Shown here piece after piece: positions 4,582-61,083 of a stretch of 64,000 nucleotides of DNA. Below the pieces are notes generated by a model, which was not told where the DNA came from, made no database searches, and saw only the letters and a program-made list of their open reading frames with translations. The number at the start of each line of letters is the position of its first letter. The stretch's first letter is position 1. The stretch is from Acidobacteriota bacterium (GTDB lineage Bacteria > Acidobacteriota > Thermoanaerobaculia > Gp7-AA8). The stretch is taken from contig JACPDH010000080.1 in NCBI GenBank assembly GCA_016184115.1, forward strand, positions 6,116 through 70,115, read 5' to 3'. Both the position numbers and the translations under genes were made by a program.

Positions 4582-6801
4582 ATGGCATTCAACTGCATCT
4601 CCTGCAAATCCGAGATCGACCCGGAATCGAAGGCCTGCCCACGCTGCGGCGACCAGATCACCGATTTCCTACGCACGTATCAACAGCAACTCCTCGACGG
4701 AAAGTACCAGTTGTTGGAGCGGCTGGGACGCGGCGGGATGGGCGAGGTCTACAAAGTACTGCACACACACCTCCACACGATCCGCGTCGTGAAGGTGATG
4801 CGTCCGCAGCTGACGGGCGATCAGTCGCTCCACGAGCGCTTCGTGCGCGAGGCGAAACTCGCGACGCGAATCCAGCACCAGAACGTAGCCACTCTCCACG
4901 ATTTTGCGTCGCTCCCCGACGGCTCCTACTACATGATCTGGGAGTTCATCGATGGGCTGAATCTCGCCGCATTGATCCGTCGCGACGGCCGTCTCGGCAT
5001 CCGAACCGTCATCGACATCGCGATTCAAACGCTGCACGGGCTCGACTCGATTCACTCGGCCGGCATCGTCCATCGCGATATCAGCCCCGAGAACATCATG
5101 GTCTCGAGCGACTCATCGGGACAGCTGCGGGTCAAGCTGATCGACCTAGGCATCGCGAAGAGCGACGCCGTCGATAACTCGCAGACTGCTACCGGCATGT
5201 TCGTGGGCAAATGGAAGTACGCCTCGCCGGAGCACCTCGGCATGATGGAGCCGGGCGAAGTCATCGACGGGCGCGCCGACCTCTACTCCTTCGGCATCGT
5301 GCTCTACGAAATGCTCGCGGGGCGGCCGCCGTTCGAGGCGACGACGCCCGGGCAGTATCTCGTCGTCCATTCGCGCGAGACGGCGAACCCGCTCGTCGAG
5401 CGGCCGATCACGTTTCCCGACGCGCCTGGGCTCGAGAACGTCCTTCGCAAAGCTCTCGAGAAGAAGCGCGAGCTTCGCTACGCCAACGCGCGCGAGCTCG
5501 CGCGCGCGCTCGGTGAGGTGCTCAGCAGGATGCAGGGAGTCGACGACGTCCCGACGGCGATCACGCCGCTGCCGAGTTATCAGGGGCCGACTGCCCCAGG
5601 CTCGGGCGGTCCTGCGTTGCCGACGATGATGCAGACGCCGACGCCTCCGCCAGGACGACCGGGTGCATTCGACCCGACGATGGCGGTACCACAACCGGGC
5701 GCACACGCGCCGACGATGGCGGTTCCGCAGCCGGGAGCGCACGCGCCAACGATGGCCGTCCCGCCGCCGCCTCCAGGGCCGGCGTACTACCAGACGACTC
5801 CTGGCGCCGCGCAACCACCCCACCAGACAGCGCCCGGCGCGCCGCAGACCGTTCTGACATCACCGGGCGTGCATCCGCCCAAGAAATCGAGCAGCGCCCT
5901 CTTCGCGGTGTTAGGCGCCGCGGGAGCGCTCGTCCTCCTCCTCGCGGGAGCAGGCGGCTGGTTCCTTTACAAACAACTGCAGAAGGAGCAGCCCGAGCAG
6001 GCTGCCTCCACGACCGCGACGACGGCAACCGGAACCGCGACCGCGCCGCCCAGCGGAACGATCCTCGACGTCGCGGTCACCCCGACGACGTCGATGACGA
6101 CAGCCGCGGTTCCGGCGACCGAGACGACGAGCACGCTCGTGGAGCTCGCGCCGACCACGACCACCGCGACGGTTCCGCTGATTCCGCCGACCGACATCAA
6201 CACGCGGCCGCCGAAGACGACGACCATGACTCCGGTGACGAGGCCGCCTGTCGACACGCAGCCGCCTACGACGATTGAACCGGAGCCGGAGCCCCCTCCG
6301 GCCGACGACGCGATCGCGACCGCCGGCCCGTTCGGACGCAGGTCGCGCAAGCTCGTCACGGACGAGACCTACTCGCGCGGCTTCAAGCGCGGCATCATCC
6401 GCAATTACGATGACATGTGGGCCGGAACCGACGTCGACTGGGCCTCGGTCGCGCGCGGCGTGAAACTCTCGCAGTACGCGATCAAGGTCGGCCCATTCCG
6501 GAACATGACGCGCTACAACAGTTCCGCGCTCAAGCGAACGCTCGAAGTGACGCTGCAGGATGAGTTCGACGGGATCGCCGGATCGAAGGGCACGCTCCTC
6601 ACACAGAACGCGATCATCTGGGCCTCCGACGCCGAGGACGGTCCCACCGGCCTCGGAATCGAAATGATCTTCCGCGATCCATCGGGCCGCGTCGTCGCAA
6701 AGCTCCGTAATTTCGTGAGGGATTACCCACCTGACGACGCCGCGGAAGAGATGCTCGAGCAGCTCACCGATTTCGTCGAGGATCACCCCGTGATCAAATG
6801 A
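4582..6801 (+). CDS. Hanks-type Ser/Thr protein kinase. It has an N-terminal zinc ribbon, a Pro-rich tandem-repeat linker, one TM helix, a Thr-rich region and a C-terminal extracytoplasmic domain of unknown function.
   Basis: CxxC…CxxC (CISCKSE…CPRCGD). Kinase subdomains are present (GxGGMGEVYK, VHRDISPENIM, DLGIAK, SPE, DLYSFG). A 12-aa repeat (AVPQPGAHAPTM) occurs three times. Hydrophobic segment ALFAVLGAAGALVLLLAGAGGWFLY. Confidence 0.85.
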   Translation: MAFNCISCKSEIDPESKACPRCGDQITDFLRTYQQQLLDGKYQLLERLGRGGMGEVYKVLHTHLHTIRVVKVMRPQLTGDQSLHERFVREAKLATRIQHQNVATLHDFASLPDGSYYMIWEFIDGLNLAALIRRDGRLGIRTVIDIAIQTLHGLDSIHSAGIVHRDISPENIMVSSDSSGQLRVKLIDLGIAKSDAVDNSQTATGMFVGKWKYASPEHLGMMEPGEVIDGRADLYSFGIVLYEMLAGRPPFEATTPGQYLVVHSRETANPLVERPITFPDAPGLENVLRKALEKKRELRYANARELARALGEVLSRMQGVDDVPTAITPLPSYQGPTAPGSGGPALPTMMQTPTPPPGRPGAFDPTMAVPQPGAHAPTMAVPQPGAHAPTMAVPPPPPGPAYYQTTPGAAQPPHQTAPGAPQTVLTSPGVHPPKKSSSALFAVLGAAGALVLLLAGAGGWFLYKQLQKEQPEQAASTTATTATGTATAPPSGTILDVAVTPTTSMTTAAVPATETTSTLVELAPTTTTATVPLIPPTDINTRPPKTTTMTPVTRPPVDTQPPTTIEPEPEPPPADDAIATAGPFGRRSRKLVTDETYSRGFKRGIIRNYDDMWAGTDVDWASVARGVKLSQYAIKVGPFRNMTRYNSSALKRTLEVTLQDEFDGIAGSKGTLLTQNAIIWASDAEDGPTGLGIEMIFRDPSGRVVAKLRNFVRDYPPDDAAEEMLEQLTDFVEDHPVIK
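5674..5775 (+). repeat. 36-bp tandem repeat, about 2.7 copies, in frame inside the kinase linker (encodes PTMAVPQPGAHA).
   Basis: The unit ccgacgatggcggtaccacaaccgggcgcacacgcg is repeated with few mismatches. Confidence 0.8.
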
Positions 6802-7397
6802 GTGAGCCCCGTTCGCCTCGAAGGATCGCCGTCTTTTGCGGTTCGGCGACGGGACACGATCAGCGTCACGTCGCCGCCGCACGCCTCCTCGGTGACACAC
6901 TCGCCGAGCGGGGGATCGGTCTCGTATACGGCGGCGGGAGCATTGGGTTGATGGGCGCGATCGCCGACTCGCTCCTCGCCCGCGGCGGCGAAGCGATCGG
7001 CGTGATCCCTCGCACGCTTTGGGAACGCGAAGTCGGCCATCGCGGCCTAACCGAGCTGCACATCGTCGAGACGATGCACGAGCGGAAGGCAATGATGGCT
7101 GGACTCGCCGATGCATTCGTCGCGCTCCCGGGAGGATTGGGAACGCTCGAAGAGCTGTTCGAGGCGTGGACCTGGTCGCAACTCGGCCTGCATCGCAAAC
7201 CGTGCGCGATCCTCGATGCGAGCGGCTACTACGACGACCTCGTTTCGTTTCTCGACAAGGCAGTCGCTGCTGGATTCGTCGACGCAACCTACCGCGCGAT
7301 GCTCATCGTCGAGCGCGAGCCCGCAACTCTTCTCGAGCGCCTCGCGTCGTACGCACCACCGAGCGTGTCGCGGTGGATCGACAAGGCGACCGTGTGA
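6798..7397 (+). CDS. LOG family protein (cytokinin riboside 5'-monophosphate phosphoribohydrolase-like, TIGR00730-type).
   Basis: Motifs IAVFCGS, GLVYGGGSIGLMG and ALPGGLGTLEEL. Confidence 0.85.
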   Translation: MSEPRSPRRIAVFCGSATGHDQRHVAAARLLGDTLAERGIGLVYGGGSIGLMGAIADSLLARGGEAIGVIPRTLWEREVGHRGLTELHIVETMHERKAMMAGLADAFVALPGGLGTLEELFEAWTWSQLGLHRKPCAILDASGYYDDLVSFLDKAVAAGFVDATYRAMLIVEREPATLLERLASYAPPSVSRWIDKATV

Positions 7398-7400
7398 CGG

Positions 7401-7575
7401 GTTGTTGGTTGTTAGTTGTTGGTTGTTAGTTGTTAGACGGGAGTGGGAGGCTGCGGGTGAGTGCCTGAACCTCAACCGTTCGCGAGTCGGCACCAACACT
7501 CCCGCGGCACATATGTCGCGCGCAACTACCCACGCCTGTCTAACAACTAACAACCGACAACCAGCAACCAACAAC
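7401..7575. repeat. Inverted arrays of heptamer tandem repeats. The left arm (GTTGTTG/GTTGTTA)x5 is at 7401-7438 and the right arm (CTAACAA/CCAACAA)x5 is at 7538-7575. The ~100-bp core carries its own nested hairpin (cgggagtg…cactcccg). The element fills the whole convergent intergenic region.
   Basis: Direct reading of the sequence: gttgttggttgttagttgttggttgttagttgttag … ctaacaactaacaaccgacaaccagcaaccaacaac. Confidence 0.85.
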
Positions 7576-7579
7576 TCCT

Positions 7580-7864
7580 CTACCCACCACTCAGTGCCGG
7601 GAGGATCACGATCTCGCTTCGTGCATGAACCGGCGTCGCGAGGCCTGCCGCAAATCGAATGCTCTCTCCGTCAACGAAGATGTTCACGTGAGGCCTGACT
7701 TCCCCTTTTTCGGTGAGGATGCGGTCGCGCACGCCAGGGCAGCTCCCCCAGAAAAGCGCAAGCGCGTCGGCAAGCGACTTCGCGTTGCCGTCGACGCGGA
7801 CTTCGCCCCGGCTTCCGGCAAGATCGCGCAGCGGCTCTGGAATCACGAAGAGCATTGGCCTCAC
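7580..7864 (-). CDS. MoaD/ThiS-family ubiquitin-like sulfur-carrier protein with a C-terminal Gly-Gly.
   Basis: 94 aa ending in …ILPALSGG. The start overlaps the stop of the upstream gene (ATGA overlap). Confidence 0.65.
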   Translation of the reverse strand: MRPMLFVIPEPLRDLAGSRGEVRVDGNAKSLADALALFWGSCPGVRDRILTEKGEVRPHVNIFVDGESIRFAAGLATPVHARSEIVILPALSGG

Positions 7865-11809: not shown

Positions 11810-11922
11810 CGTGCAAGGTTGGCTCGGCGCTCACGCGCCGAGCCAACCTTGGTCAGCGTCGAGCAACCACAGCCCGGCCGCCCGCTTGCGGATTGACCTT
11901 TGGCACTTGGTCTCCGCCCGCC

Positions 11923-16985: not shown

Positions 16986-17864
16986 ATGTCTGAACCTCTC
17001 AGAACGCTGCTGGCGCGACTCATCGACTACGCCGGACTCTTCCCTCCGGCCGCTCTGCCGATGGGGACGACGGTGTCGAACTACGCGCGCTACCGTAGCT
17101 CGGGTGAACGATGGATGCTCGGGCGGCTGATCGTCCCCGTCGCTCGTTTCGGCGAGCTCGAGCCCGCGCTGGCGAGTGTAGCCACAACGCGTGCCGAGCC
17201 GTGGCAGATCAGCGCGCTCACGGGCGCCGACCTGATCGCGGATCTCGACGAGATCGCCGCATTCAACGCGCGCAATCGCGGGCGCGCGATCGTCGACGCG
17301 ATCGAAACGAAAGTTGCGACGAGCGAGGGGATCGCGGCGGCCTCGGCAATCATCCCGCCCGAGATCGAAACCTACTTCGAGCTTCCACTCGCTCTCGATC
17401 CCGACGCACTCGTCGCGGCGATTGCAGGATCGGGACGCCGGGCGAAAATGCGGACAGGCGGCGTCACCGAGGACGCCTTTCCGCCTGCGGCACACATCGC
17501 GCGATTCATCGCTCGTTGTGCGGCGCACGGCGTTGCATTCAAAGCCACCGCAGGGCTGCATCACCCGCTTCGCTGCGTCCGGCCGCTCACCTACGAGCCT
17601 CGCAGTGCGACCGGCATGATGCATGGTTTTCTCAATGTCTTCCTTTCCGCGGCGCTGATCATCGGCGGCAGCCCCGTGATGCTCGCCGAAGAGCTTCTAG
17701 AAGAGACCGATCCCGCGACACTGACATTCGGCGACGACGCGATTCGCTGGCGCGGCAACAGCATCGCGACCAACGCGCTCGCCGCGGCGCGGGCGCTCGC
17801 CATTTCGTTCGGATCGTGCTCGTTCGACGAGCCAGTACGCGAGCTCCATGAGATGGCGAGCTGA
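16986..17864 (+). CDS. Conserved hypothetical protein of unknown family. It occupies the slot where maleylacetoacetate isomerase usually sits.
   Basis: 292 aa with good codon bias and an RBS (gaaagg). It lies between hmgA and fahA. No GST-like motif was recognised. Confidence 0.55.
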   Translation: MSEPLRTLLARLIDYAGLFPPAALPMGTTVSNYARYRSSGERWMLGRLIVPVARFGELEPALASVATTRAEPWQISALTGADLIADLDEIAAFNARNRGRAIVDAIETKVATSEGIAAASAIIPPEIETYFELPLALDPDALVAAIAGSGRRAKMRTGGVTEDAFPPAAHIARFIARCAAHGVAFKATAGLHHPLRCVRPLTYEPRSATGMMHGFLNVFLSAALIIGGSPVMLAEELLEETDPATLTFGDDAIRWRGNSIATNALAAARALAISFGSCSFDEPVRELHEMAS

Positions 17865-17982: not shown

Positions 17983-19290
17983 ATGACGACGCATCTCGAC
18001 CACACGCATGACCCATCGCTTCGCAGTTTCGTCGACAGTGCCAACGACCCGTCGACCGACTTCCCCATCCAAAACCTGCCGCTCGGCGTCTTCGTACGCG
18101 GCACGGGGCGCCATGTCGGCATTGCGATCGGAAGATCGGTGCTCGACGTCACGAGCGCGGCAAGGGAGCTCTTCGCCGGCGATACCGCGACGGCAGCCGA
18201 GGCATGCGCAACCGGTTCGCTCAACGCGCTGATGGCTCTCGGTCGTCCAGCAGCGCGTGCGCTTCGCAGACGCGCAAGCGAGCTCCTTCGGCACGGAAGC
18301 GGCGAGCGTGCGGCGGTCGAGCGCCACCTGATTCCGATGCGCGATGTGCAAATGCTTCTGCCCGCCACGATTGGCGACTACACGGACTTCTACGCGTCGG
18401 TACACCACGCGACGAATGTCGGGAGCATGTTCCGTCCCGACAATCCACTGCTGCCTAACTATAAGTGGGTTCCGATCGGCTATCACGGCCGCGCATCATC
18501 GATCGTCGCGAGCGGAACTCCCGTCGTGCGGCCGAAAGGCCAGACGAAGGACGACGCAAGCGCCTCGCCGGCCTTCGGCCCCTCGAAGCGGCTCGACTAC
18601 GAGCTCGAGGTCGGATGCTTCGTGGCGGGACGGAATGCGCTCGGCGAAACGCTGCCGATCGCCGATGCCGACGACCGCATCTTCGGACTATGCCTTCTGA
18701 ACGACTGGTCCGCGCGTGATATCCAGGCGTGGGAGTACCAGCCACTCGGGCCGTTTCTCGCGAAGAACTTTGCGACGTCGATCTCGCCGTGGGTTGTCAC
18801 GCTCGATGCGCTGGCGCCGTTCCGCGCGCCGCTCGCGCCACGCGCCGAGGGCGATCCGCGCCCCCTTCCGTACCTTGACGGTGAGACTGACCGTAGCGCC
18901 GGCGGTTTCGCCGTCACGCTCGAAGTCGCAATTTCCTCGCGAAGAATGCGCGAGTCCGATATGCCCGCAACGGTCTTGAGCCGCAGCTCGCTGCTCGACG
19001 TCTACTGGAGCTTCGCGCAGATGCTCGCGCATCACGCGAGCGGAGGCTGCAACCTGGAGCCGGGAGATCTCGTCGGCAGCGGTACCGTCTCCGGCGAAGC
19101 GAAGGACGCGCGCGGATGTCTCCTCGAGTTGACATGGAGAGGCAGCGACCCGATCTCGCTGCTTTCGGGTGAGCAGCGCAAGTTCCTCGAAGACGGAGAC
19201 GAAGTCGTCCTGCGTGGTTGGTGCGAACGCGAGGGTTACGCTCGCATCGGATTCGGCGAGTGCGTCGGGGAAATCGTGCCGGCGCGGTAA
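17983..19290 (+). CDS. fahA: Fumarylacetoacetase (fumarylacetoacetate hydrolase).
   Basis: The N-terminal FAH-N region (FPIQNLPLGVF) and the C-terminal FAH fold motifs are present. ~435 aa, typical of FahA. Confidence 0.85.
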   Translation: MTTHLDHTHDPSLRSFVDSANDPSTDFPIQNLPLGVFVRGTGRHVGIAIGRSVLDVTSAARELFAGDTATAAEACATGSLNALMALGRPAARALRRRASELLRHGSGERAAVERHLIPMRDVQMLLPATIGDYTDFYASVHHATNVGSMFRPDNPLLPNYKWVPIGYHGRASSIVASGTPVVRPKGQTKDDASASPAFGPSKRLDYELEVGCFVAGRNALGETLPIADADDRIFGLCLLNDWSARDIQAWEYQPLGPFLAKNFATSISPWVVTLDALAPFRAPLAPRAEGDPRPLPYLDGETDRSAGGFAVTLEVAISSRRMRESDMPATVLSRSSLLDVYWSFAQMLAHHASGGCNLEPGDLVGSGTVSGEAKDARGCLLELTWRGSDPISLLSGEQRKFLEDGDEVVLRGWCEREGYARIGFGECVGEIVPAR

Positions 19291-19314
19291 CGACAGGGAG
19301 GGAGGAGGGTAGAC

Positions 19315-19433
19315 GGCAGAAAGCAGACGCCAGAAGGCACAAGTCAGAAGGCGAATCGGAGAACGCTAATTCACGCTCCGAAATCTGATATCTGCCATTC
19401 TCCGTTTCTGCCTTCTGGTTTCCGCCTTCTGCC
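19315..19433. terminator. Inverted heptamer arrays, (NNCAGAA)x7 then a spacer then (TTCTGNN)x5, forming a long hairpin between the convergent fahA and cupin genes. Probably a bidirectional terminator.
   Basis: ggcagaaagcagacgccagaaggcacaagtcagaaggcgaatcggagaacg … cattctccgtttctgccttctggtttccgccttctgcc. Confidence 0.6.
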
Positions 19434-19792
19434 TAAATCCGTTCCGGCTCCGCGACTGTCCGATCGCCACCTGCGTTGCCGGTGTTGAGCGTCGAAGCTG
19501 GCTCGAAGAGAAGCACAGAGACCTCAGCCTCCGCGACAGGCCGATGCTCCACTCCGCGCGGAACGACGATGAACTCACCCTCGGCGATCGGCACTTGTCG
19601 GTCGCGGAACTCCATCACGAATCGACCTGCGAGGACGAGGAACATCTCGTCTTCGCGCTCATGCTGATGCCAGACGAACTCGCCCTGAAACTTCACGAGC
19701 TTCACATGTTGGCCGTTGAGCTCGGCGACGATCTTCGGATCCCAGTGCGTCGAGAATATCGCCAGCTTCTGCGCGAGGTTGATCTTCTCCAT
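19433..19792 (-). CDS. Cupin-domain protein.
   Basis: Cupin 2 motif region (HQHEREDEMFLVLAGRF…VVPRGVEH). The start is at ATG 19792 (MEKINL). Confidence 0.65.
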   Translation of the reverse strand: MEKINLAQKLAIFSTHWDPKIVAELNGQHVKLVKFQGEFVWHQHEREDEMFLVLAGRFVMEFRDRQVPIAEGEFIVVPRGVEHRPVAEAEVSVLLFEPASTLNTGNAGGDRTVAEPERI

Positions 19793-25787: not shown

Positions 25788-25944
25788 GCTAGCCCCAATG
25801 GCCTGAAGTCAAGAAGAAGAGGCTGAAGTTAGAACGATGAACGATGAAGTTTGAACCCATAAAAGGGCCCCGGGCGGCTTTTCAAGGTTCAACGTTCGCC
25901 GTTCTACGTTCTAACTTCGAGACTTTCGTCCCTGGGTTCAGGCC
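25788..25944 (+). mobile_element. Palindromic MITE-like repeat element, copy 1. It has ~60-bp imperfect inverted arms and an internal (GAANNNT) heptamer periodicity.
   Basis: Matches the reverse complement of 30456..30632 at high identity: ggcctgaag…gaagttagaacgatgaacgatgaagtttgaaccc … gttcaggcc. Confidence 0.7.
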
Positions 25945-26024
25945 GTTTCTGCCAGCACGCATCGTTAGGCTGCACGATCAGCTCGCTCTTCGTCGGATCG
26001 ATCCTTGCGCTTCTCGATTCCCGA

Positions 26025-27965: not shown

Positions 27966-28901
27966 ATGCCCTACTTCTCCGTCGTCATCCCAACCCACAA
28001 CCGAATCGCGATGCTCGAGCGCGTGCTCGATGCCCTGGGCCAGCAGCTCGAAGCGCCGAAGTTCGAGGTCGTTGTCATCGACGACGGATCGAATGACGAC
28101 ACCGCCGCAAGAGTGAGCGCTCACCTCGATTCGAAACGCTGGAGCTACCCGCTTCGCTTCGAGTCGCAACAAAACTCCGGTCCTGGTCTCGCCCGGAACC
28201 GCGGCGTCGCGATCGCCCAGGGAAGCTACATCGTCTTCATCGGCGACGATACGGTTCCTGAGCCTCGGTTCCTCGCCGAGCACGCGCGCGTCCACCGCGA
28301 GTGCGGTGACGATCCATTGGCCGCCTGCCTCGGCTACACCGGCTGGCCGCACGATGGCCAGGTAACACCGTTCATGGAGTACATCAACGACTATGGGCTT
28401 CAGTTCGGCTACAAGCTGATCGAGCACGACACGATCGTCCCGTTCAATTTCCTCTACACGTCGAACATCTCAATCGATCGCGAGCTCCTCGCTTCGAACC
28501 CGTTCGACACCTCGTTTCCTGCAGCCGCCTGGGAAGACATCGAGCTCGCGTTCCGGCTCGACGCAAAAGGGCTAAAGATCCACTATGACGCGAAGGCGAT
28601 CACGCGGCACCATCACCCGATGACGATCGATTCGTTCTCGCGCCGCCAATACACCGTCGGGCGCTCCGGTGCAATCTTCTTCGAGAAGCACCCCGGCCTT
28701 GGCCATTGGCTCGGCGTCGTGGAGTTGGGCGAGAAAGGAATCGCGGGCGATGGCGAGCTCAGGCGCCTCCGCTTCTTCGCGCGCCTCGGCGAACGCTTCC
28801 GCCTCTTCGCACGCCCAGCCATCTTCGAACGCCTCATGCGCCAGCATTACCTGCGCGGCCTGAGAGACGGCTTGGCGGAGAGGCAGGTCAAACCCCTATG
28901 A
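27966..28901 (+). CDS. Family 2 glycosyltransferase.
   Basis: FSVVIPTHNR…, DDGSNDDT and the DxD-region characteristic of GT2. Confidence 0.8.
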   Translation: MPYFSVVIPTHNRIAMLERVLDALGQQLEAPKFEVVVIDDGSNDDTAARVSAHLDSKRWSYPLRFESQQNSGPGLARNRGVAIAQGSYIVFIGDDTVPEPRFLAEHARVHRECGDDPLAACLGYTGWPHDGQVTPFMEYINDYGLQFGYKLIEHDTIVPFNFLYTSNISIDRELLASNPFDTSFPAAAWEDIELAFRLDAKGLKIHYDAKAITRHHHPMTIDSFSRRQYTVGRSGAIFFEKHPGLGHWLGVVELGEKGIAGDGELRRLRFFARLGERFRLFARPAIFERLMRQHYLRGLRDGLAERQVKPL

Positions 28902-28937
28902 CCTTTGACCTGCTCTTCACGCGCAAACCTCGCTAGA

Positions 28938-30455: not shown

Positions 30456-30632
30456 GGGCTAGTCCTAATGGCCTGAACTTAGGGACGAAAGTCCTCGAAG
30501 TTCGAACGTGGAGCTTTCAATGCTGAACCCTGAAACCCCCGCTCGAGGCCCCTTTTCTGGGTTCAAACTTCATCGTTCATCGTTCTAACTTCGGCCTCTT
30601 CCTCTTAAGTTCAGGCCATTTAGGCTAGTCCC
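30456..30632 (-). mobile_element. Palindromic MITE-like repeat element, copy 2 (complete). It has ~23-bp terminal inverted repeats GGGCTAGTCCTAATGGCCTGAAC / GTTCAGGCCATTTAGGCTAGTCCC. Its right end supplies the TAG stop codon of msrA.
   Basis: High-identity reverse-complement match to 25788..25944. Located between the convergent holB and msrA genes. Confidence 0.7.
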
Positions 30633-31122
30633 GTACGAAGTGGCAGTTGTAGCCCCACGGGTTCTTCCGCAGGTAGTCCTGGTGGTACTCCTCGGCGTCG
30701 TACCAGGCGGTCGCCGGTACAATCGCCGTAACCAGAGGGCGCGGCCACTTCCCCGACGCGTCGACCTCGGCCTTGACTCGGTCGGCGGTCGCCCTCTGCT
30801 CCTCCGAGTGAACGAAGATCGCAGAGCGGTACTGCGTGCCGACGTCGTTCATTTGCCTGTTCAGCTGCGTCGGGTCGTGCATTCGGAAGAAGAAGCGGAG
30901 GATCTCCTCGTAGGAGATGACCGCGGGATCGAAGGTGATCTTCACGGCTTCTGCGTGCCCGCTATTGCCCTTCTTGACGTAGTCATACGTCGGGTCGTCG
31001 AGCGTGCCGCCGGTGTAGCCGACGACGGTTTCGACGACGCCTGGCAACTGGCGAATCAACTCCTCGACACCCCAGAAGCAGCCCCCGGCCAACGTCGCGG
31101 TCTCTCGATTCGGTTCGGTCAT
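30625..31122 (-). CDS. msrA: Peptide methionine sulfoxide reductase A.
   Basis: Active-site motif GGCFWGVEE. ~165 aa. Confidence 0.85.
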   Translation of the reverse strand: MTEPNRETATLAGGCFWGVEELIRQLPGVVETVVGYTGGTLDDPTYDYVKKGNSGHAEAVKITFDPAVISYEEILRFFFRMHDPTQLNRQMNDVGTQYRSAIFVHSEEQRATADRVKAEVDASGKWPRPLVTAIVPATAWYDAEEYHQDYLRKNPWGYNCHFVRD

Positions 31123-31303
31123 GTCGATTCTCCTTGAGGCCTTGGGGCTACGCCCGATCTTCGAAACCGGAGGGCGGCGCCGGTTCGTTCCCGACGCCCG
31201 CTCCCATGCTCCCATCCCAGGTTGAAACGACCGCGAAGGGTAAACGATTGGCGCACCCTCCCGGATTGGTACAATGCGCGGCCGGCTTCGAGCCGCACCG
31301 GCC

Positions 31304-32626
31304 ATGGACTTCTGGTACCTGATTCTTTCGTTCCTTTTCGTTGCGGCGAACGGCTACTTCGTCGCCGCAGAATTCGCGATCGTCAAAGTCCGCGCGACGC
31401 AGCTTGCCGAGCTGGAGGCGAAGGGATCGAAGGCGGCCACGATCGGCCGGCTCCTCACGCGCGAGCTCGACGCATACCTCTCGGCGACTCAGCTCGGCAT
31501 CACGCTCTCCTCGCTCGCCCTGGGCTGGATCGGCGAGCCGGCATTCGCCCACATCATCGAGCCGGTGTTCGAAAACTACGGTGCGCTCGCTCCCGCGCTC
31601 GCACACTCGATCTCGGCAAGTGTTGCCTTCGTCATCATCTCGATTCTCCACATCGTCTTCGGCGAGCTCGTCCCGAAATCGCTCGCGATCCAGAAGCCGA
31701 TCGTCACCACACTCTGGGTCGCCCATCTCCTCCGCTTCTTTTACATCGTGATGTACCCGGCGATCTGGCTCCTCAACGGCACGGCCCGGTTCATTCTCAA
31801 GTCGATCGGCATCGCGCCCGCCTCGGATCACGAGCTCGCGCACTCCGCCGAAGAACTGAGGCTGATCCTGGCCGACTCGGAGAGGGCGGGTGTCCTTTCG
31901 CAACCAAAGAAGGAGATCATCGAAGGGGTTTTCCAGTTCTCCAAGCGAACCGCGCGCCAGATCATGGTTCCGCGCACCGACGTTTTCGTGCTCTCGACGA
32001 CGAATACGATCGAGCAGAACCTTGAAGTGATCCGAAACTCGCGCCACACCCGCTACCCTCTTTGCGAGGGCAATCTCGACCGCACAGTTGGCCTCATCCA
32101 TGTCAAGGACCTCTTTCTTGCGCAGCTCCGAGGACCTGGGCGCAGCCTTGGGGAGCTCCGTCGCGACATCCTATTCGTACCGGAGAACACGACGGTCGAG
32201 CACCTCCTCGAACAGTTCCTCGAGCAACGAACGCACATGGCTGTGATTCTCGACGAATATGGCGGCGCTTCCGGCATCGTCTCGATGGAGAACATCACCG
32301 AAGAGCTCTTCGGGCAGATCCAGGATGAGTTCGATCGCGAACGGCTCGAAGTCGAGCCCCTCGGAGATGGGCGATACCGCGTTCGAGGCGACTACTTGAT
32401 CGAGGACCTTGCCGGACGGCTCCGTATTGACGTCGGGAAGCCGGCGGAGGAGACGATTGGAGGCTATGTCGCCGCAAATCTCGGGCGTGAGGTGCAGCCG
32501 GGCGATCGCTGCTCGCTAGGGCCCCTCGAGATCGAGGTGATCGAAGGCGAACGTTATCGTGTCCGTTGGGTGCTCGTCGTCGCGCCGCAATTGCCTCCGG
32601 AAGACGAAGGCACCAGCGCGGAGTGA
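31304..32626 (+). CDS. CNNM/HlyC-CorC-family transporter (DUF21 + CBS pair + CorC_HlyC).
   Basis: N-terminal DUF21 TM region (LSAT QLGITL), CBS domains, and the C-terminal CorC motif region. Confidence 0.8.
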   Translation: MDFWYLILSFLFVAANGYFVAAEFAIVKVRATQLAELEAKGSKAATIGRLLTRELDAYLSATQLGITLSSLALGWIGEPAFAHIIEPVFENYGALAPALAHSISASVAFVIISILHIVFGELVPKSLAIQKPIVTTLWVAHLLRFFYIVMYPAIWLLNGTARFILKSIGIAPASDHELAHSAEELRLILADSERAGVLSQPKKEIIEGVFQFSKRTARQIMVPRTDVFVLSTTNTIEQNLEVIRNSRHTRYPLCEGNLDRTVGLIHVKDLFLAQLRGPGRSLGELRRDILFVPENTTVEHLLEQFLEQRTHMAVILDEYGGASGIVSMENITEELFGQIQDEFDRERLEVEPLGDGRYRVRGDYLIEDLAGRLRIDVGKPAEETIGGYVAANLGREVQPGDRCSLGPLEIEVIEGERYRVRWVLVVAPQLPPEDEGTSAE

Positions 32627-33212: not shown

Positions 33213-33222
33213 GCGAGTGCGG

Positions 33223-33278
33223 AGTCCTAAGTCCTGAGTCCTGAGTCCTCAGTCCTCAGTCCTGAGGACTGAGGACTT
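33223..33278. terminator. Heptamer-repeat hairpin: (AGTCCTN)x6 followed directly by (NAGGACT)x2. Perfect 13+ bp stem between convergent genes.
   Basis: agtcctaagtcctgagtcctgagtcctcagtcctcagtcctgaggactgaggact. Confidence 0.65.
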
Positions 33279-52258: not shown

Positions 52259-52280
52259 CTTGTTGGTTGTTGGTTGTTAG
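52259..52280. repeat. Solo heptamer array (GTTGTTG/GTTGTTA)x3 between the fumarase alpha and beta subunit genes. It has the same unit as the 7401-7575 element.
   Basis: cttgttggttgttggttgttag. Confidence 0.7.
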
Positions 52281-52285
52281 AGCCG

Positions 52286-53203
52286 TCAATACAGCCACGC
52301 GGCCGCACGACCGCTCGCCGCGTCGATCTCGACGCCGCGACGGCGATAGGCCCAGCACATGTATGCGATGCTGACGAAGAAGCTCGCGGGAAGCCGGTTT
52401 GCCTTGCCGATCTTGCAGGCGAGCAGCGTCGTCTTTCCTCCAAAGCCCATCGGGCCGATCCCCGACTGGTTCGCCTTGGCAACGACTCGGTTCTCGAGCT
52501 CGGCGAGCACCGGATCCTCGCTCGGCTCGTCGAGTAGGCGGAGCAACTGCTCTTTCGCCACCGCGTAACCACTGCCGCGATCGCCGCCGATACAGACACC
52601 GAGGATGCCTGGGCCGCAGCCCTGCCCCTGCGCCTGGAGGACGCAGTCGAGAATCGCATTCTCGACGCCGGCAAGGTCGCGTCCGCCGAGCTGCGGATGC
52701 GGCAGGCTGTACTGCGCGTTCATGTTCTCGCAGCCCCCTCCCTTGAGCATCACCTTGATCTCGACGTGCGGCTTGCGCCACTGATGGAAGTGGAAGACGG
52801 GCGAGCCCGGCCCGGTGTTGTCTCCGGAGTTCTTCCCCGTTAGGCTGTCGACGCTGTTCTGGCGGAGATATCCCTTGCGCGTCGCCTCACGCACCGCCTC
52901 GGTTGCTGCCTCTTCCAGCGTGAGCTGGTCGTAGCCGACCGGCGTGTGGATGTAGAAGAGGATCGTTCCGGTGTCCTGGCAGAGCGGTGCCGACTTCTCC
53001 TTCGCGAGGCCGATGTTGCAGCCGATGATGTTCAACGCGACCTCGGCGTTCGACCCCTTCTCCTCGCTCGCCTCCGCGGCCGTGACCGCGCGCACGACGT
53101 CGTCCGGAAGGATCGCGCTCGTCCGCCGGATCAGCTCCAGAATCGTCTCGTAAAGGGCGGGGTCGATCGCCGTCTGCTCCGCCTGTTGTGCCGTTGCGCT
53201 CAT
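52286..53203 (-). CDS. Fe-S hydro-lyase alpha subunit (class I fumarate hydratase N-terminal / TtdA-like).
   Basis: CQDTGT…, …GGGC…, …CIGGD… are cysteine-containing motifs of the class I fumarase catalytic domain. Confidence 0.8.
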   Translation of the reverse strand: MSATAQQAEQTAIDPALYETILELIRRTSAILPDDVVRAVTAAEASEEKGSNAEVALNIIGCNIGLAKEKSAPLCQDTGTILFYIHTPVGYDQLTLEEAATEAVREATRKGYLRQNSVDSLTGKNSGDNTGPGSPVFHFHQWRKPHVEIKVMLKGGGCENMNAQYSLPHPQLGGRDLAGVENAILDCVLQAQGQGCGPGILGVCIGGDRGSGYAVAKEQLLRLLDEPSEDPVLAELENRVVAKANQSGIGPMGFGGKTTLLACKIGKANRLPASFFVSIAYMCWAYRRRGVEIDAASGRAAAWLY

Positions 53204-54780: not shown

Positions 54781-56031
54781 ATGACGCTACCGATGAGTCG
54801 ACCGGGATCTTCAGCGGATCGCGCGGATGCCATCGCTGGCGCGGCGAGCGGCTTCAAGTCGTTCGAGACCGCTCTCGAGCAGGCCGCCGACGGGATCGCC
54901 CTGTTCGCGCCCGACGCGTCGGGAATCCTCACGGTCAGCTTCGCGAACGCCGCGCTCTGCCGCCTCTTCTCGCGCGCTCCATCCGAGATCGTCGGCATCG
55001 CGGTCGACGAGCTTGGCATTCGCGAAGACGGCGCGAAGAACGACGCGGTCCGCGAACGGCTTCTCGCAGGACAGCGAATCGCCGGCTCGGGCTCCCTTCT
55101 GCGGGCCGATGGTGTCCGCAAAAGCGTCGACGTGAGCATCGTTCCGGTGCGTGGCGACGGCGGCGACGTCTCTCAATGGATCGCGATCTTCCATGACCTT
55201 CGGGAAGTCGACGCTTCGTCGAAAGATGCGGTCGCGGCCGAGCTGGCCGCGCGCGCGGAAGAGTTGCGCGAGGCGATGATCTGGGACCATCTCGTCAACT
55301 ACTACCAGCCGATCGTCGACCTGAAGACGGGGATCGTCACACACGCCGAAGTTCTCGTTCGCTGGAATCATCCGACGCGCGGATTGCTCGGCCCCGACAA
55401 GTTCCTTCCTCTCGCGGAAGCCACGGGACTGATTCGCGACGTCACGATGTGGTGTTTCGAAGATTCGTTCCGGCAGCACCGTGAGTGGCAGAAGGCAGGT
55501 TTGAACGTCGGCCTCGCGATGAACCTCTCCCCGTCGAACCTTCACGACACCGCGATTGCCGAAACGATCACCGAGTTGCTCGAGACATCAGGAGTCGATC
55601 CAGGAATGCTCCGCGTGGAGATCACGGAGAACGCGATTCTCGACGACCCGACGCACGTGCTCGCGCTTCTCTCCCTCTTGCAGACCTTCGGCGTGTCGCT
55701 CTCGCTCGACGACTTCGGCACCGGTTACTCGTCGCTCACGAACCTGCGCGAGGTGCCGTTTCAGGAGATCAAGATCGACAAGTCATTCGTCCTTAACATG
55801 ATGGAGGAGGAGGGCGACCGCGCCGTGGTGCGTGCCGTGATCGACCTCGCCCACAGCCTCGGCAGGCACGTCGTCGCCGAAGGGATCGAGGACGAGCAAA
55901 CGCTCAATCAGCTGCGCAGCTGGGGCTGTGACTACGCCCAGGGCTACTTCATCAGCCGCCCGATCCCACCGGCACAGTTCGAGGTGTGGGCGAGAAACAA
56001 CCTGGCGGGAAAAGCAGGTCAAAGGTCATAG
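54781..56031 (+). CDS. PAS-EAL domain protein (putative c-di-GMP phosphodiesterase).
   Basis: EAL signature motifs (…EVLVRW…, …EITEN…, …DDFGTGYSSL…, …KIDKSFV…, …EGIE…Q…). Confidence 0.8.
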   Translation: MTLPMSRPGSSADRADAIAGAASGFKSFETALEQAADGIALFAPDASGILTVSFANAALCRLFSRAPSEIVGIAVDELGIREDGAKNDAVRERLLAGQRIAGSGSLLRADGVRKSVDVSIVPVRGDGGDVSQWIAIFHDLREVDASSKDAVAAELAARAEELREAMIWDHLVNYYQPIVDLKTGIVTHAEVLVRWNHPTRGLLGPDKFLPLAEATGLIRDVTMWCFEDSFRQHREWQKAGLNVGLAMNLSPSNLHDTAIAETITELLETSGVDPGMLRVEITENAILDDPTHVLALLSLLQTFGVSLSLDDFGTGYSSLTNLREVPFQEIKIDKSFVLNMMEEEGDRAVVRAVIDLAHSLGRHVVAEGIEDEQTLNQLRSWGCDYAQGYFISRPIPPAQFEVWARNNLAGKAGQRS

Positions 56032-56190
56032 GTCAGAGGTCAAGGCAGGCAGGAGTCCGGCGTGAAGGCGTTCGGTCTGCCGGTAAGGCATTGCTCTCGT
56101 CGATCACCGTCGTTCGACCACACCCCGGAGTCGGGCAGCCTTCCACTCCCGCTGCCTGCTATGACCTGTGACCTTTGGCCTGTGGCCTGC
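56015..56190. repeat. Inverted heptamer arrays. (AGGTCAN)x4 is at 56015-56053 and overlaps the stop of the EAL gene. (NTGACCT)x4 is at 56154-56190. They are separated by a ~100-bp spacer.
   Basis: caggtcaaaggtcataggtcagaggtcaaggcaggcagg … ctgcctgctatgacctgtgacctttggcctgtggcctgc. Confidence 0.75.
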
Positions 56191-56246
56191 ATTCAGAAAC
56201 TTCCCCACTCCGTTCACGTAGAGTGTCCCAACTCAGGAGGAATCTC

Positions 56247-60100: not shown

Positions 60101-60693
60101 GCGAAACACCGCTCGAGCGCGTCGAGAATCAGGGCTACATCCACTACCGGAAGGGCTCGCTCGTCATGTACGCGCTGCGCGACTACATGGGCGAAGAAGC
60201 GCTGAACCGCGCGCTCGCCAGGTTCGTCGCCGACCACAAGTTCGCCGAGCCGCCATACCCTACTTCTCTCGACCTGCTCAGCTACATTCGCGCCGAAGCG
60301 TCGCCCGAGCTGCAGCCCGTAATCACTGACCTGTTCGAGTCGATCACGATCTACGAGAACAAGGCGACCGCCGCCTCGGCATCGAAGCGCGCCGACGGGA
60401 AATGGGTGGTATCGCTCGAGATCGCGGCGGGCAAGTACCACGCAACCGCCGCAGGAAAGGAAGAGCCGGTGAAGATCGGCGACCTCATCGACATCGGCAT
60501 CCTCGGCGACGACCCGAAAGACAAGACCCGCGGCGCTCCCATCCTCTATCTCGAGAAGAAGCGAATCGATCGACCCAAAATGAAGTTCGAAATCGTCGTC
60601 GATCGCGAGCCGTCGAAAGCCGGCATCGACCCGCTCAACAAGCTCATCGACCGAAACCCCGAAGACAATCTGAAGGCAGTGGAACGAAAGTAG
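57161..60693 (+). CDS. ABC-2 type permease fused to an M1-family (aminopeptidase N-like) zinc metallopeptidase. The reading frame is interrupted by a 1-nt frameshift near 58570-58590; the two ORFs in the track are 57161..58645 and 58582..60693.
   Basis: The first ORF has 8+ TM helices and ends in Arg-rich junk after …LSFFVPS. The second ORF starts with more TM helices and continues into an M1 domain with HEVAHQWW…E (HExxH-18-E). The two overlap by 64 nt in different frames. Confidence 0.6.
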
Positions 60694-61083
60694 AAACGCG
60701 AAACGCGGAACGGGAAACACGGAACGCCGAACGGGGAACGCGAAACGCGGAACGGGAAACGCGAAATGTGGAACGGAAAACGCGAAATGTGGAACGCGGG
60801 ATGCGAATGTCGAAACGCGTTACGCGACGAGAAACACAGAACGTTCAAGGCAACCCCAGCCGCACCTCAAACGCGGAGCTCATGAGAGCTAGCTCCTACC
60901 CGGTTCCGCGCCTCATGTAACGGTTTCGCATTTCGCGTTTCGCATTTCGCGTTTCGCATTTCGCGTTCCGCATTCCGCATTTCGCGTTCCGCATTTCGCA
61001 TTTCGCGTTTCGCATTCCGCATTTCGCATTTCGCGTTCCGCATTTCGCGTTCCGCATTTCGTGTTTCGCACTCCGCATTTCGA
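60694..61083. repeat. Large inverted pair of heptamer tandem arrays. (GAAACGC/GGAACGG/GAAATGT…) about x24 is at 60694-60860. (GCATTTC/GCGTTTC/GCGTTCC) about x25 is at 60905-61083. Together they span the whole convergent intergenic region.
   Basis: Direct reading. The ORF-track entries 60402..60920 and 60896..61129 are only translations of the repeats (TRNAERE… and MRNAKCG…). Confidence 0.85.

What the first reader, a model, noticed from the sequence alone, without database searches (positions are those of the whole stretch)
7398..7579. GTTGTTR heptamer palindrome filling the LOG / MoaD convergent intergenic region, with a third copy of the same unit 45 kb away
(GTTGTTG/GTTGTTA)x5 starts 4 nt after the LOG-gene stop. 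The reverse-complement array ends 5 nt before the MoaD stop. A nested hairpin (cgggagtg…cactcccg) sits in the core. The same heptamer recurs as a solo array at 52259-52280, between the fumarase alpha and beta subunit genes, that is inside a probable operon. Reuse of the same unit at two unrelated loci argues for propagation (copying or templated insertion) and not only local slippage.
Basis: seen in the sequence. Interest (0 to 1): 0.6.

Follow-up and report, generated by a model that had tools for sequence, protein, structure and literature searches.

The report
Heptamer-repeat hairpin between convergent genes
The spacer between two convergent genes is one long hairpin whose arms are tandem 7-base repeats. 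It belongs to a little-understood but already reported class of bacterial repeats; it is old and conserved in related genomes, and its function is still unknown.

Summary
(GTTGTTR)5 at 7401-7435 and its inverted copy at 7541-7575 fill the LOG / ThiS-MoaD spacer. The whole 182 nt folds into one hairpin (about -110 kcal/mol, z about -11 to -13). It is not a one-off. The window holds at least seven more 7-nt-period elements, all at gene 3' ends, and three unit families recur at unrelated loci. Relatives (70-85% protein identity) keep the same gene order. Four lineages keep a GTTGTTR palindrome in this spacer, with different copy numbers: 4/4, 3/4 plus a duplication, 6/2, and a left half only. Three others carry a different heptamer palindrome there. 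The fumarase alpha/beta array is also orthologous in a relative, and it lies on the sense strand 13 nt upstream of the beta start codon. So the two GTTGTTR loci are old, local slippage clearly acts, and unit reuse is real but not recent. Inverted heptamer arrays just downstream of genes are already described in Xanthomonas (Rehm 2015). My best reading is a shared 3'-end RNA hairpin remodelled by slippage, with the unit sequence under constraint. Function is inferred, not shown. The G-rich arm always comes first, and this polarity is unexplained.

The parts
7395..7397 (+). Stop codon (TGA) of the LOG / TIGR00730-family gene (6798-7397)
7401..7435 (.). 5' arm: (GTTGTTR)5 heptamer array
7436..7460 (.). 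Inner left part of the palindrome (AGACGGGAGTGGGAGG...). It pairs with 7516-7540. The junction GTTGTTAGAC is invariant in relatives.
7461..7515 (.). Central non-palindromic core with local hairpins. It diverges quickly between relatives and shows no covariation support.
7516..7540 (.). Inner right part of the palindrome (...CAACTACCCACGCCTGTCT)
7541..7575 (.). 3' arm: inverted array TAACAAC TAACAAC CGACAAC CAGCAAC CAACAAC
7580..7582 (-). Stop codon (CTA on the plus strand) of the ThiS/MoaD-like gene (7580-7864; C-terminal Gly-Gly)
52259..52280 (-). Solo array. The sense strand reads TAACAAC CAACAAC CAACAAG, in the 40-nt spacer between fumarase alpha (stop codon at 52286-52288) and fumarase beta (ATG 52245-52243).
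19298..19434 (.). Same class: GGCAGAA-type / TTCTGCC inverted arrays between FAA hydrolase (+) and a cupin gene (-)
25790..25953 (+). Copy A of a dispersed ~165-nt palindrome with internal GAANNNN heptamer periodicity
30459..30628 (-). Copy B of the same palindrome (82% identical to A). Its end overlaps the stop codon of the minus-strand gene 30625-31305.
33215..33277 (.). Same class: (AGTCCTN)6 followed directly by (AGGACTG)2 between convergent genes. The same unit fills the LOG/ThiS spacer in relative L207.
56011..56193 (.). Same class: (AGGTCAN)4 / (TGRCCTN)4 around a ~100-nt core between two plus-strand genes. The left arm overlaps the upstream stop codon (TAG, 56029-56031).
28884..28912 (.). 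Short form of the AGGTCA family: a hairpin straddling the stop codon at 28899-28901. 28895-28912 is an exact 18-nt match to the reverse complement of 56013-56030.
60685..61082 (.). Same class, largest example: about 19 GAAACGC/GGAACGN units and about 23 RTTTCGC units. It runs stop codon to stop codon between the M1 peptidase gene (+) and a minus-strand ORF.

Best explanation
The 182-nt spacer is a conserved foldback element. It is one locus in a lineage-wide population of palindromes whose arms are tandem 7-nt repeats.

**Shown.**
- It runs from stop codon to stop codon of two convergent genes and folds into one very stable hairpin on either strand.
- The same GTTGTTR/YAACAAC palindrome sits in the orthologous spacer of relatives on three separate branches (71-80% amino-acid identity between branches).
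- Unit number changes between them (5/5, 4/4, 3/4 plus a 122-nt duplication, 6/2). This is the signature of replication slippage.
- The unit and the array/core junction stay unchanged while the core diverges.
- Sibling elements with other units sit at other gene 3' ends, and none sits between divergent genes.

**Inferred.**
- Transcripts from either gene fold the G/U-rich array back on the A/C-rich array straight after the stop codon. This gives a shared 3'-end hairpin that blocks read-through into the facing gene and/or protects both mRNAs from 3' exonucleases, as REP/BIME hairpins do in E. coli.
- The unit sequence is held either by selection (something reads the sequence itself) or by re-copying from other family members.
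- The solo array in the fumarase operon is the A/C-rich arm alone on the sense strand. It forms no hairpin, so the two genes are probably co-transcribed. It more likely acts as an unstructured leader or binding site for fumarase beta translation.

**Confidence by part.** About 0.85 that it belongs to this repeat class and evolves as described. About 0.4 that its role is a 3'-end RNA hairpin.
For: **Anatomy and stability.** For this element z is -13/-11. Sibling elements give -5 to -11. Five ordinary spacers give about 0.

**Position.** Arrays lie in 6 of 11 convergent spacers, about 4 tandem spacers and 0 of 3 divergent spacers. Several abut or overlap stop codons.

**Conservation.**
- Orthologous spacers L205, L206, L208 and L210/211 keep GTTGTTR arrays and the AGAC...GTCT junction.
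- The tree puts them on three branches, interleaved with spacers that carry AGTCCTG or AGGCGAR palindromes. A heptamer hairpin therefore persists at this site even when the unit is replaced.

**Transcribed strand.** In the one element flanked by two plus-strand genes (56 kb), the plus-strand RNA is 12 kcal/mol more stable than the minus strand, owing to G.U pairs. In the LOG/ThiS element, two of the three arm differences are G.U pairs on the plus strand.

**Solo array.**
- It has no inverted partner, and its folding energy is only -0.09 to -0.16 kcal/mol per nt.
- The orthologous spacer in a relative (FumB 92% identical) reads TGA GTTGTTG AAC TAACAAC TAACAAC ... ATG.
- FumB starts at the same MAN(Y/F)KLTTPLDEAT as its homologues.

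**Precedent.** Xanthomonas GGGAATC heptamers lie on average 28 nt after the upstream ORF. About 70 of 186 form inverted pairs, they are rare between divergent genes, and they vary in length between species (PMC4692102).
Against: - No transcript data exist, so termination or stabilisation is untested.
- There is no U-tract or A-tract next to the stem. The consensus terminator scan finds nothing that matches the element.
- A 35-65 bp near-perfect RNA duplex would be an RNase III substrate, which could destabilise the mRNAs instead of protecting them.
- The arms are often unequal in other examples (6/2 in L208; 3/8, 10/4 and 3/6 in metagenome contigs). Pairing is therefore not tightly selected.
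- Substitutions in the inner stem are G.U-compatible on the plus strand in some relatives and on the minus strand in others. RNAalifold gives a positive (unfavourable) covariation term (+2.8) and weak consensus energy.
- A plain hairpin role does not explain why the period is 7, why the unit sequence is conserved, or why the G-rich arm always comes first.
Confidence: 0.45

Rival explanations
1. **Mobile or copied foldback element (MITE/REPIN-like, or templated repair).** Palindromes with heptamer-array arms are copied between 3' intergenic sites by a trans-acting enzyme or by break repair that uses another copy as template. Slippage then changes arm length.
For: - Two 82%-identical ~165-nt copies lie at 25.8 kb and 30.5 kb in opposite orientation.
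- An exact 18-nt match links 28.9 kb and 56.0 kb, including the termini GCAGGTCA...TGACCTGC.
- The AGTCCTG, AGGYCAN and AGGCGAR families occur at non-orthologous loci in relatives.
- The unit has been replaced at the orthologous LOG/ThiS spacer on three branches.
- The unit is conserved far better than the core, which re-copying would explain.
Against: - No target-site duplication is visible at 7398/7579 or around copies A and B.
- The core and flanks of the two GTTGTTR loci are unrelated.
- Both loci are orthologously retained, so any movement is old.
- No transposase or RAYT candidate was identified. Many different units would each need a reader, unless recognition is by structure.
Confidence: 0.2
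2. **Non-functional by-product.** Heptanucleotide slippage (the long simple-sequence-repeat class of Mrazek 2007) seeds on existing 3' hairpins and persists because these spacers tolerate it.
For: - Copy number differs between orthologues and between arms.
- Heptamer arrays of any unit are far above chance in public contigs: 37-117 viral contigs for each of four units.
- The polymerase-slippage idea is reported in PMC4679880.
- No covariation was found.
Against: - The unit GTTGTTR and the junction are identical on three branches that differ by 20-30% in protein sequence, while the core is barely alignable. Concerted evolution within one array does not stop its consensus from drifting.
- Polarity is strict: G-first 18:1 for this unit, and G>C in the 5' arm in every pair found in loci not selected for GTTGTTR.
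- A heptamer palindrome persists at this site through unit replacement.
Confidence: 0.2
3. **Array of binding sites for a sequence-specific reader.** One option is a DNA-binding protein that polymerises on 7-bp heptads, as the ribbon-helix-helix omega protein of plasmid pSM19035 does. The other is an RNA-binding protein: the YAACAAC arm is a run of A-R-N triplets of the kind Hfq binds, and it resembles the TAACTGA leader repeats. Both comparisons are from my own knowledge.
For: - The unit sequence is conserved beyond what pairing needs.
- One position of each unit is free and six are fixed in several families.
- A/C-rich arrays tend to lie just upstream of start codons (40 of 158, against 26 of 158 for the G-orientation).
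- The fumarase beta start has only a weak Shine-Dalgarno match.
- MacGregor 2015 proposes S1, Csp or CsrA-type readers for TAACTGA repeats.
Against: - At least seven different units in 64 kb would need many readers.
- Operator-like arrays are expected between divergent genes, where none is found.
- The orientation statistics are noisy and based on ORF calls only.
- No candidate protein was identified.
Confidence: 0.15

Closest known systems
Inverted GGGAATC heptamer repeats of Xanthomonas and GGGGA(C/T)T repeats of Nostoc (Rehm et al. 2015, PMC4692102)
   Same: Tandem 7-nt units. They are intergenic and lie close behind the upstream ORF. Many occur as two arrays on opposite strands facing each other, able to form a stem-loop. 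They are rare between divergent genes. Length differs between related species. The G-rich array comes first. Function is unknown.
   Different: One unit dominates a Xanthomonas genome and can form G-quadruplexes. Here at least seven units coexist in 64 kb, GTTGTTR has no G-tracts, the arms enclose a ~100-nt core, and the unit can be replaced at an orthologous site.
TAACTGA direct repeats of marine Beggiatoaceae, Cyanobacteria and Bacteroidetes (MacGregor 2015, PMC4679880)
   Same: For the solo array: sense-strand heptamer repeats a few nt upstream of a start codon that lacks a strong Shine-Dalgarno sequence. The distribution is patchy across phyla.
   Different: The unit is different. TAACTGA sets are almost all direct (169 direct, 1 indirect) and lie at 5' ends, whereas the LOG/ThiS element is an inverted pair at 3' ends.
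Heptanucleotide long simple sequence repeats (Mrazek 2007, as summarised in PMC4679880) and cyanobacterial STRR heptamers
   Same: Period 7 is the commonest long-unit repeat in many bacteria. The repeats are intergenic and variable in length. Polymerase slippage has been proposed as the cause.
   Different: Those surveys describe arrays, not conserved palindromes with cores, unit families or arm polarity.
REP / BIME / REPIN elements (Bertels and Rainey 2011, PMC3116915; Di Nocera 2013, PMC3733652)
   Same: Extragenic, often between convergent genes or at 3' ends. They fold into hairpins and form dispersed families. Proposed roles are termination, mRNA stabilisation and gyrase binding.
   Different: A REP unit is itself a 20-40-nt palindrome with a GTAG/CGTC tag and is moved by a RAYT transposase. 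Here the arms are non-palindromic tandem heptamers, there is no tag, and no RAYT was seen.
Foldback transposons of eukaryotes (from my own knowledge)
   Same: Long inverted arms built from tandem short repeats of variable number around a middle segment.
   Different: They occur in eukaryotes, are much longer, and are known to transpose. This is an analogy only.
Bidirectional intrinsic terminators between convergent genes (from my own knowledge)
   Same: A single symmetric hairpin shared by two convergent genes.
   Different: Canonical ones have a short GC-rich stem flanked by an A-tract and a U-tract. This stem is 35-65 bp and has neither tract.

Membership tests
Intergenic heptanucleotide repeats in inverted pairs (Xanthomonas type, PMC4692102) | Tandem 7-nt unit, at least 2-4 copies, far above chance | tested here: met
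   5 + 5 units; 10 pattern hits against 0.19 expected
Intergenic heptanucleotide repeats in inverted pairs (Xanthomonas type, PMC4692102) | Two arrays on opposite strands facing each other, able to form a stem-loop | tested here: met
   arms match at 32 of 35 positions; z about -11
Intergenic heptanucleotide repeats in inverted pairs (Xanthomonas type, PMC4692102) | Close behind the upstream ORF and depleted between divergent genes | tested here: met
   3-4 nt from both stop codons; arrays in 0 of 3 divergent spacers in the window (small sample)
Intergenic heptanucleotide repeats in inverted pairs (Xanthomonas type, PMC4692102) | Same locus in related genomes, with length variation | tested here: met
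   5/5, 4/4, 3/4+4 and 6/2 units in orthologous spacers
Intergenic heptanucleotide repeats in inverted pairs (Xanthomonas type, PMC4692102) | G-quadruplex potential (four or more runs of GGG) | tested here: not met
   GTTGTTR has no G run longer than 2
REP / REPIN | Repeat unit is itself a 20-40-nt imperfect palindrome with a GTAG or CGTC end tag | tested here: not met
   the arms are direct heptamer arrays, not self-complementary, and there is no tag at 7398-7401 or 7575-7579
REP / REPIN | Associated RAYT (Y1 transposase) gene in the genome | not tested
   Only 64 kb is available. The source genome is not in the searchable collections, and the window's ORFs were not screened for transposases.
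MITE | Terminal inverted repeats plus a target-site duplication | tested here: not met
   inverted arms are present, but no direct duplication flanks 7398/7579 or copies A and B
MITE | Several near-identical full-length copies in one genome | tested here: inconclusive
   only the array recurs for GTTGTTR. A different family has two full copies at 82% identity. The whole genome is not available.
Canonical intrinsic / bidirectional terminator | Short GC-rich stem, 3-8-nt loop, U-tract after the stem (A-tract before it for the opposite strand) | tested here: not met
   no U- or A-tract. The scan reports only a weak 7-pair stem at 7385-7406 and nothing for the element as a whole.
Described RNA family (Rfam 15) | Match at or above a family's gathering score | tested here: not met
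   no hit in the window. Only sub-threshold matches to a plant miRNA-precursor model (25 bits against a cut-off of 90), i.e. 'a long hairpin'.
Sense-strand heptamer leader repeats (TAACTGA type, PMC4679880); applies to the solo array | Direct heptamer repeats on the coding strand within a few nt upstream of a start codon, without a canonical ribosome-binding site | tested here: met
   the array ends 13 nt before the confirmed fumarase beta ATG, and only GAG-type Shine-Dalgarno matches lie between them. The unit differs (YAACAAC, not TAACTGA).

The most novel reading that the evidence does not exclude
These bacteria, and possibly many other phyla, may carry an unrecognised system that creates, copies and maintains foldback elements with heptamer-array arms at gene 3' ends.

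Three observations point that way:
- A small repertoire of unit families is shared between unrelated loci and between genomes.
- A unit can be swapped at a fixed site.
- The G-rich strand of each arm always runs 5'->3' toward the centre.

That polarity is what repeat addition to the two 3' ends of a break, followed by joining or fold-back priming, would give. It may instead reflect a sequence-specific reader that needs this orientation. Either would mean a dedicated enzyme or binding factor behind the long-noted excess of 7-nt repeats in bacteria.
Probability: 0.2. Interest if true: 0.75.

Novelty: new variant of a known kind. Interest (0 to 1): 0.5.

Why it matters
Heptanucleotide repeats are the commonest long-unit simple repeats in many bacteria, and after some 35 years they still have no accepted function or origin.

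This locus adds three observations that make the question testable:
- The unit sequence is conserved over deep divergence while copy number and core change.
- Different unit families replace each other at one orthologous 3' spacer.
- There is a strict arm polarity.

If the elements define mRNA 3' ends in high-GC bacteria that lack canonical terminators, they matter for annotating operons and for expression engineering in Acidobacteriota.

There is also a practical point. Assemblies break at these arrays: contig L001 ends inside the array, and L202/L204 carry N gaps in the same spacer.

Tried and rejected
- **Rfam.** Gathering scan of the whole window and E-value scan of 7300-7700 found nothing real.
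- **Structured RNA in the core.** RNAalifold on five orthologous cores gave a weak consensus (-12.3 kcal/mol) with a positive (unfavourable) covariation term. Only the outer palindrome is kept.
- **Canonical terminator.** Not met.
- **G-quadruplex.** Rejected, because the unit has no G-tracts.
- **Small ORF inside the element.** Only spurious frames were found, running on antisense to the flanking genes.
- **Array inside the fumarase beta coding sequence.** Homologues are listed as 190-191 aa against my 181. The N-termini coincide, so the difference is at my mis-set 3' end.
- **Source genome.** The LOG query against one genome per species gave a best hit of 65% identity, so the source genome is not in that collection and no genome-wide copy count was possible. 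The exact-protein look-up returned only a 1,144-nt contig of the same strain, which ends in the array. The look-up for the ThiS-like protein found nothing.
- **Homology of metagenome hits.** BLAST of the 120 GTTGTTR contigs against the window found no homology beyond the arrays.
- **Orientation of arrays relative to starts and stops.** In 158 arrays from metagenome contigs there were only modest trends (40 vs 26 and 25 vs 13), and the ORF calling is crude.
- **Literature.** Mrazek 2007 is not held in the library. Its content is cited second-hand from PMC4679880 and PMC4692102.
- **Element at 54.6 kb.** It has 21-nt periodicity but no significant hairpin (z about -1 and +0.5), so I do not count it as a member.

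Full report
**1. Observation**

The sequence is as described. After the LOG stop codon (TGA, 7395-7397) come CGG and then GTTGTTG GTTGTTA GTTGTTG GTTGTTA GTTGTTA (7401-7435). The inverted array TAACAAC TAACAAC CGACAAC CAGCAAC CAACAAC occupies 7541-7575. TCCT and the stop codon of the minus-strand ThiS/MoaD-like gene (CTA, 7580-7582) follow.

Pfam confirms the gene names: LOG 4e-43, ThiS 2e-07, Fumerase 6e-72, Fumerase_C 2.5e-55.

A two-unit pattern with up to two mismatches hits 10 times in the window, against 0.19 in shuffles. The palindrome is longer than the arrays: 65-nt arms at 82% complementarity. The whole spacer folds as one hairpin:
- plus strand: -111 kcal/mol, z = -11.2
- minus strand: -105 kcal/mol, z = -9.95 (my re-run gave z = -13.3 and -10.6).

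The nested 8-bp hairpin exists, but the best fold does not use it and relatives do not keep it.

The third copy (52259-52280) lies in the 40-nt spacer between the fumarase alpha and beta genes. On their sense strand it reads TAACAAC CAACAAC CAACAAG and ends 13 nt before the beta ATG. The beta N-terminus matches its homologues, so that start codon is right.

**2. It is one of a class**

Tandem Repeats Finder shows that periods 7, 14 and 21 account for 10 of the 17 arrays scoring at least 40 in the window. Reading them shows further elements, each with its own unit:

| Position | Unit / description |
|---|---|
| 19298-19434 | GGCAGAA type |
| 25790-25953 and 30459-30628 | Two copies of one palindrome with GAANNNN periodicity |
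| 33215-33277 | AGTCCTN followed by AGGACTG |
| 56011-56193 | AGGTCAN / TGRCCTN |
| 60685-61082 | About 19 and about 23 units of GAAACGC type |
| 28884-28912 | Short AGGTCA hairpin across a stop codon |

Their folding z-scores are mostly -5 to -11 on at least one strand (the weakest single-strand values are -2.3 to -2.7). Five ordinary spacers give about 0.

They sit in 6 of 11 convergent spacers, about 4 tandem spacers and none of 3 divergent ones. Several abut or overlap stop codons.

The element at 54.6 kb has 21-nt periodicity but no hairpin, so I leave it out.

**3. Organism and relatives**

The source genome is not among the species representatives. The best LOG match there is 65% identical, in a Thermoanaerobaculia MAG. 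The protein database holds the identical protein from an NCBI 'Acidobacteria bacterium' MAG on a 94-kb contig, plus relatives at 78-87% identity.

I fetched contigs for several relatives. Gene order (kinase, LOG, then ThiS and a BNR protein on the other strand) is kept. The LOG/ThiS spacer reads as follows:

| Locus | Content of the LOG/ThiS spacer |
|---|---|
| L205 | 4 + 4 GTTGTTR units with a clearly homologous core |
| L206 | 3 G-units; the right half (core plus C-array) is duplicated in tandem |
| L208 | 6 + 2 units |
| L210 / L211 | Left half only, then a deletion that removes ThiS, BNR and the kinase |
| L207 | (GAGTCCT)3(GAGGACT)3, the unit of the window's 33.2-kb element |
| L209, L202-204 | An AGGCGAN type |

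A neighbour-joining tree of LOG plus the kinase C-terminus puts the GTTGTTR spacers on three separate branches, with 71-80% identity between branches. The other two types are interleaved among them. The simplest reading is that GTTGTTR is ancestral here and was replaced three times.

In the alignment, the arrays and the junction (GTTGTTAGAC ... GTCTAACAAC) are invariant, while the core is 65% identical or worse. Concerted evolution within an array does not stop its consensus from drifting. So either the unit is under selection or it is renewed from other copies. That step is inference.

**4. The fumarase array**

In a relative with 92% identical FumB, the same spacer reads TGA GTTGTTG AAC TAACAAC TAACAAC ...ATG. 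It is identical in six samples. So this array is orthologous and old.

It has no inverted partner in the window and essentially no folding energy. Co-transcription of alpha and beta is therefore likely. This is inferred, not measured.

**5. Is the unit special?**

None is related to the window outside the arrays.

In viral contigs the target unit occurs in 117 contigs. Composition-matched shuffled units occur in 43, 37 and 62. All four counts are far above chance, and the target is only 2-3 times commoner than the controls. Unit identity alone is therefore weak evidence for copying.

Within the window, however, three pairs among about 10 loci share a family. One pair shares an exact 18-mer, and one pair shares 82% identity over about 165 nt. 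About 0.02 shared pairs would be expected from about 2,340 unit classes (my arithmetic). The families also recur at non-orthologous loci in relatives. Families are real. How they spread is unknown.

**6. Polarity**

For GTTGTTR pairs in metagenome and viral contigs, the G-array comes first in 18 cases and the C-array first in 1.

Among inverted heptamer pairs in loci that were not selected for this unit, the 5' arm has more G than C every time. This covers the window elements and L002, L024, L026, L050, L205 and L206. The AGTCCTG family, which that scan did not pick up, is skew-neutral by unit composition.

A palindrome reads the same on both strands, so this is not a replication-strand or transcription-strand effect. 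I have no tested explanation. The Xanthomonas pairs are described with the same orientation.

**7. Literature**

- Rehm et al. 2015 report 186 GGGAATC arrays in Xanthomonas campestris. About 70 are in facing inverted pairs. They lie on average 28 nt after the upstream ORF, are rare between divergent genes, vary in length between species, and have no known function.
- MacGregor 2015 reports TAACTGA repeats just upstream of start codons that lack ribosome-binding sites, and summarises Mrazek 2007: heptanucleotides are the commonest long repeats, possibly through polymerase slippage.
- I found no description of such elements in Acidobacteriota.

**8. Mechanism**

I commit to a shared 3'-end RNA hairpin for the two convergent genes, remodelled by slippage, with the unit under constraint.

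- *Shown:* structure potential, position, conservation, copy-number change, and unit turnover.
- *Inferred:* termination or mRNA protection.
- *Against it:* there is no U-tract, arms are unequal elsewhere, there is no covariation, and period, unit conservation and polarity remain unexplained.

The rivals are copying as a foldback element, neutral slippage, and arrays of binding sites. They are not mutually exclusive, and none is excluded.

**9. Verdict**

The element is a new variant of a known but unexplained kind of repeat. It is of moderate interest, mainly for the conserved unit, the unit turnover at one site and the polarity rule.

Noticed in passing
window 25790-25953 and 30459-30628: Two copies (82% identical, opposite orientation) of a ~165-nt palindrome with ends CTAG..AATGGCCTGAA. 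The arms show GAANNNN / TTCNNNN 7-nt periodicity. The left half is much better conserved than the right. Copy B overlaps the stop codon of gene 30625-31305.
   Followed up: partly
window 28884-28912 vs 56011-56193: A 29-nt hairpin straddles the stop codon of gene 27966-28901, just upstream of a thymidylate-kinase-like ORF. It shares an exact 18-mer and the termini GCAGGTCA...TGACCTGC with the 183-nt AGGTCAN element. They look like a short and a long form of one family.
   Followed up: partly
L210:2151-2316 and L211:1625-1790: In this relative the GTTGTTR element is cut in its core. ThiS, the BNR gene and the second kinase (about 3.7 kb in the window) are missing, so LOG is followed directly by the 186-aa ORF. 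The palindrome core is a deletion breakpoint.
   Followed up: no
L206:5679-5966: A tandem duplication of about 122 nt (right half of the core plus the C-array) gives one G-array and two C-arrays.
   Followed up: no
L206:9614-9827; L205:10814-11132; L202:15035-15061 and 17801-17827; L212:444-523: AGGCGAR / TCGCCTY and TGGCCTN arrays recur at several non-orthologous spacers in relatives. In L206 two families sit side by side as a compound element.
   Followed up: partly
window, L002, L024, L026, L050, L205, L206; metagenome and viral GTTGTTR loci: In inverted heptamer pairs the G-rich arm is always the 5' arm: 18:1 for GTTGTTR, and every unselected pair found. This is unexplained.
   Followed up: partly
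L001:1116-1144; L202 and L204:10601-10803; L212 and L213 downstream of fumB: Short-read contigs end inside these arrays or carry runs of N in these spacers. Heptamer palindromes break assemblies, so they are probably under-counted in MAGs.
   Followed up: no
L081 (Hymenobacter):4957-5040, 18135-18171, 19298-19331; L050 (Vicinamibacteria):13135-13299: Inverted heptamer pairs with the same build occur in distant phyla: AGTTGTC/ACAACT in Hymenobacter, and AGTGCCA/CACTTGG with a 102-nt core in Vicinamibacteria. Hymenobacter uses several CAAC-based units.
   Followed up: no
window 11810-11922: This convergent spacer has an ordinary GC-rich hairpin and no 7-nt periodicity (GCAAGGTTGGCTCGGCGC...GCGCCGAGCCAACCTTGG; z about -5). 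Plain hairpins coexist with the heptamer type.
   Followed up: no
window 5658-5756: A 36-nt tandem repeat inside the Ser/Thr kinase gene encodes a repeated proline-rich peptide (PTMAVPQPGAHA). A 42-nt repeat sits at the same place in relatives L202-204.
   Followed up: no
L002:9684-9772: In the Thermoanaerobaculia MAG with 65% identical LOG, a G-rich heptamer palindrome (CGGGAGT / ACTCCCG) lies just upstream of LOG. Unlike GTTGTTR, this unit could form G-quadruplexes.
   Followed up: no
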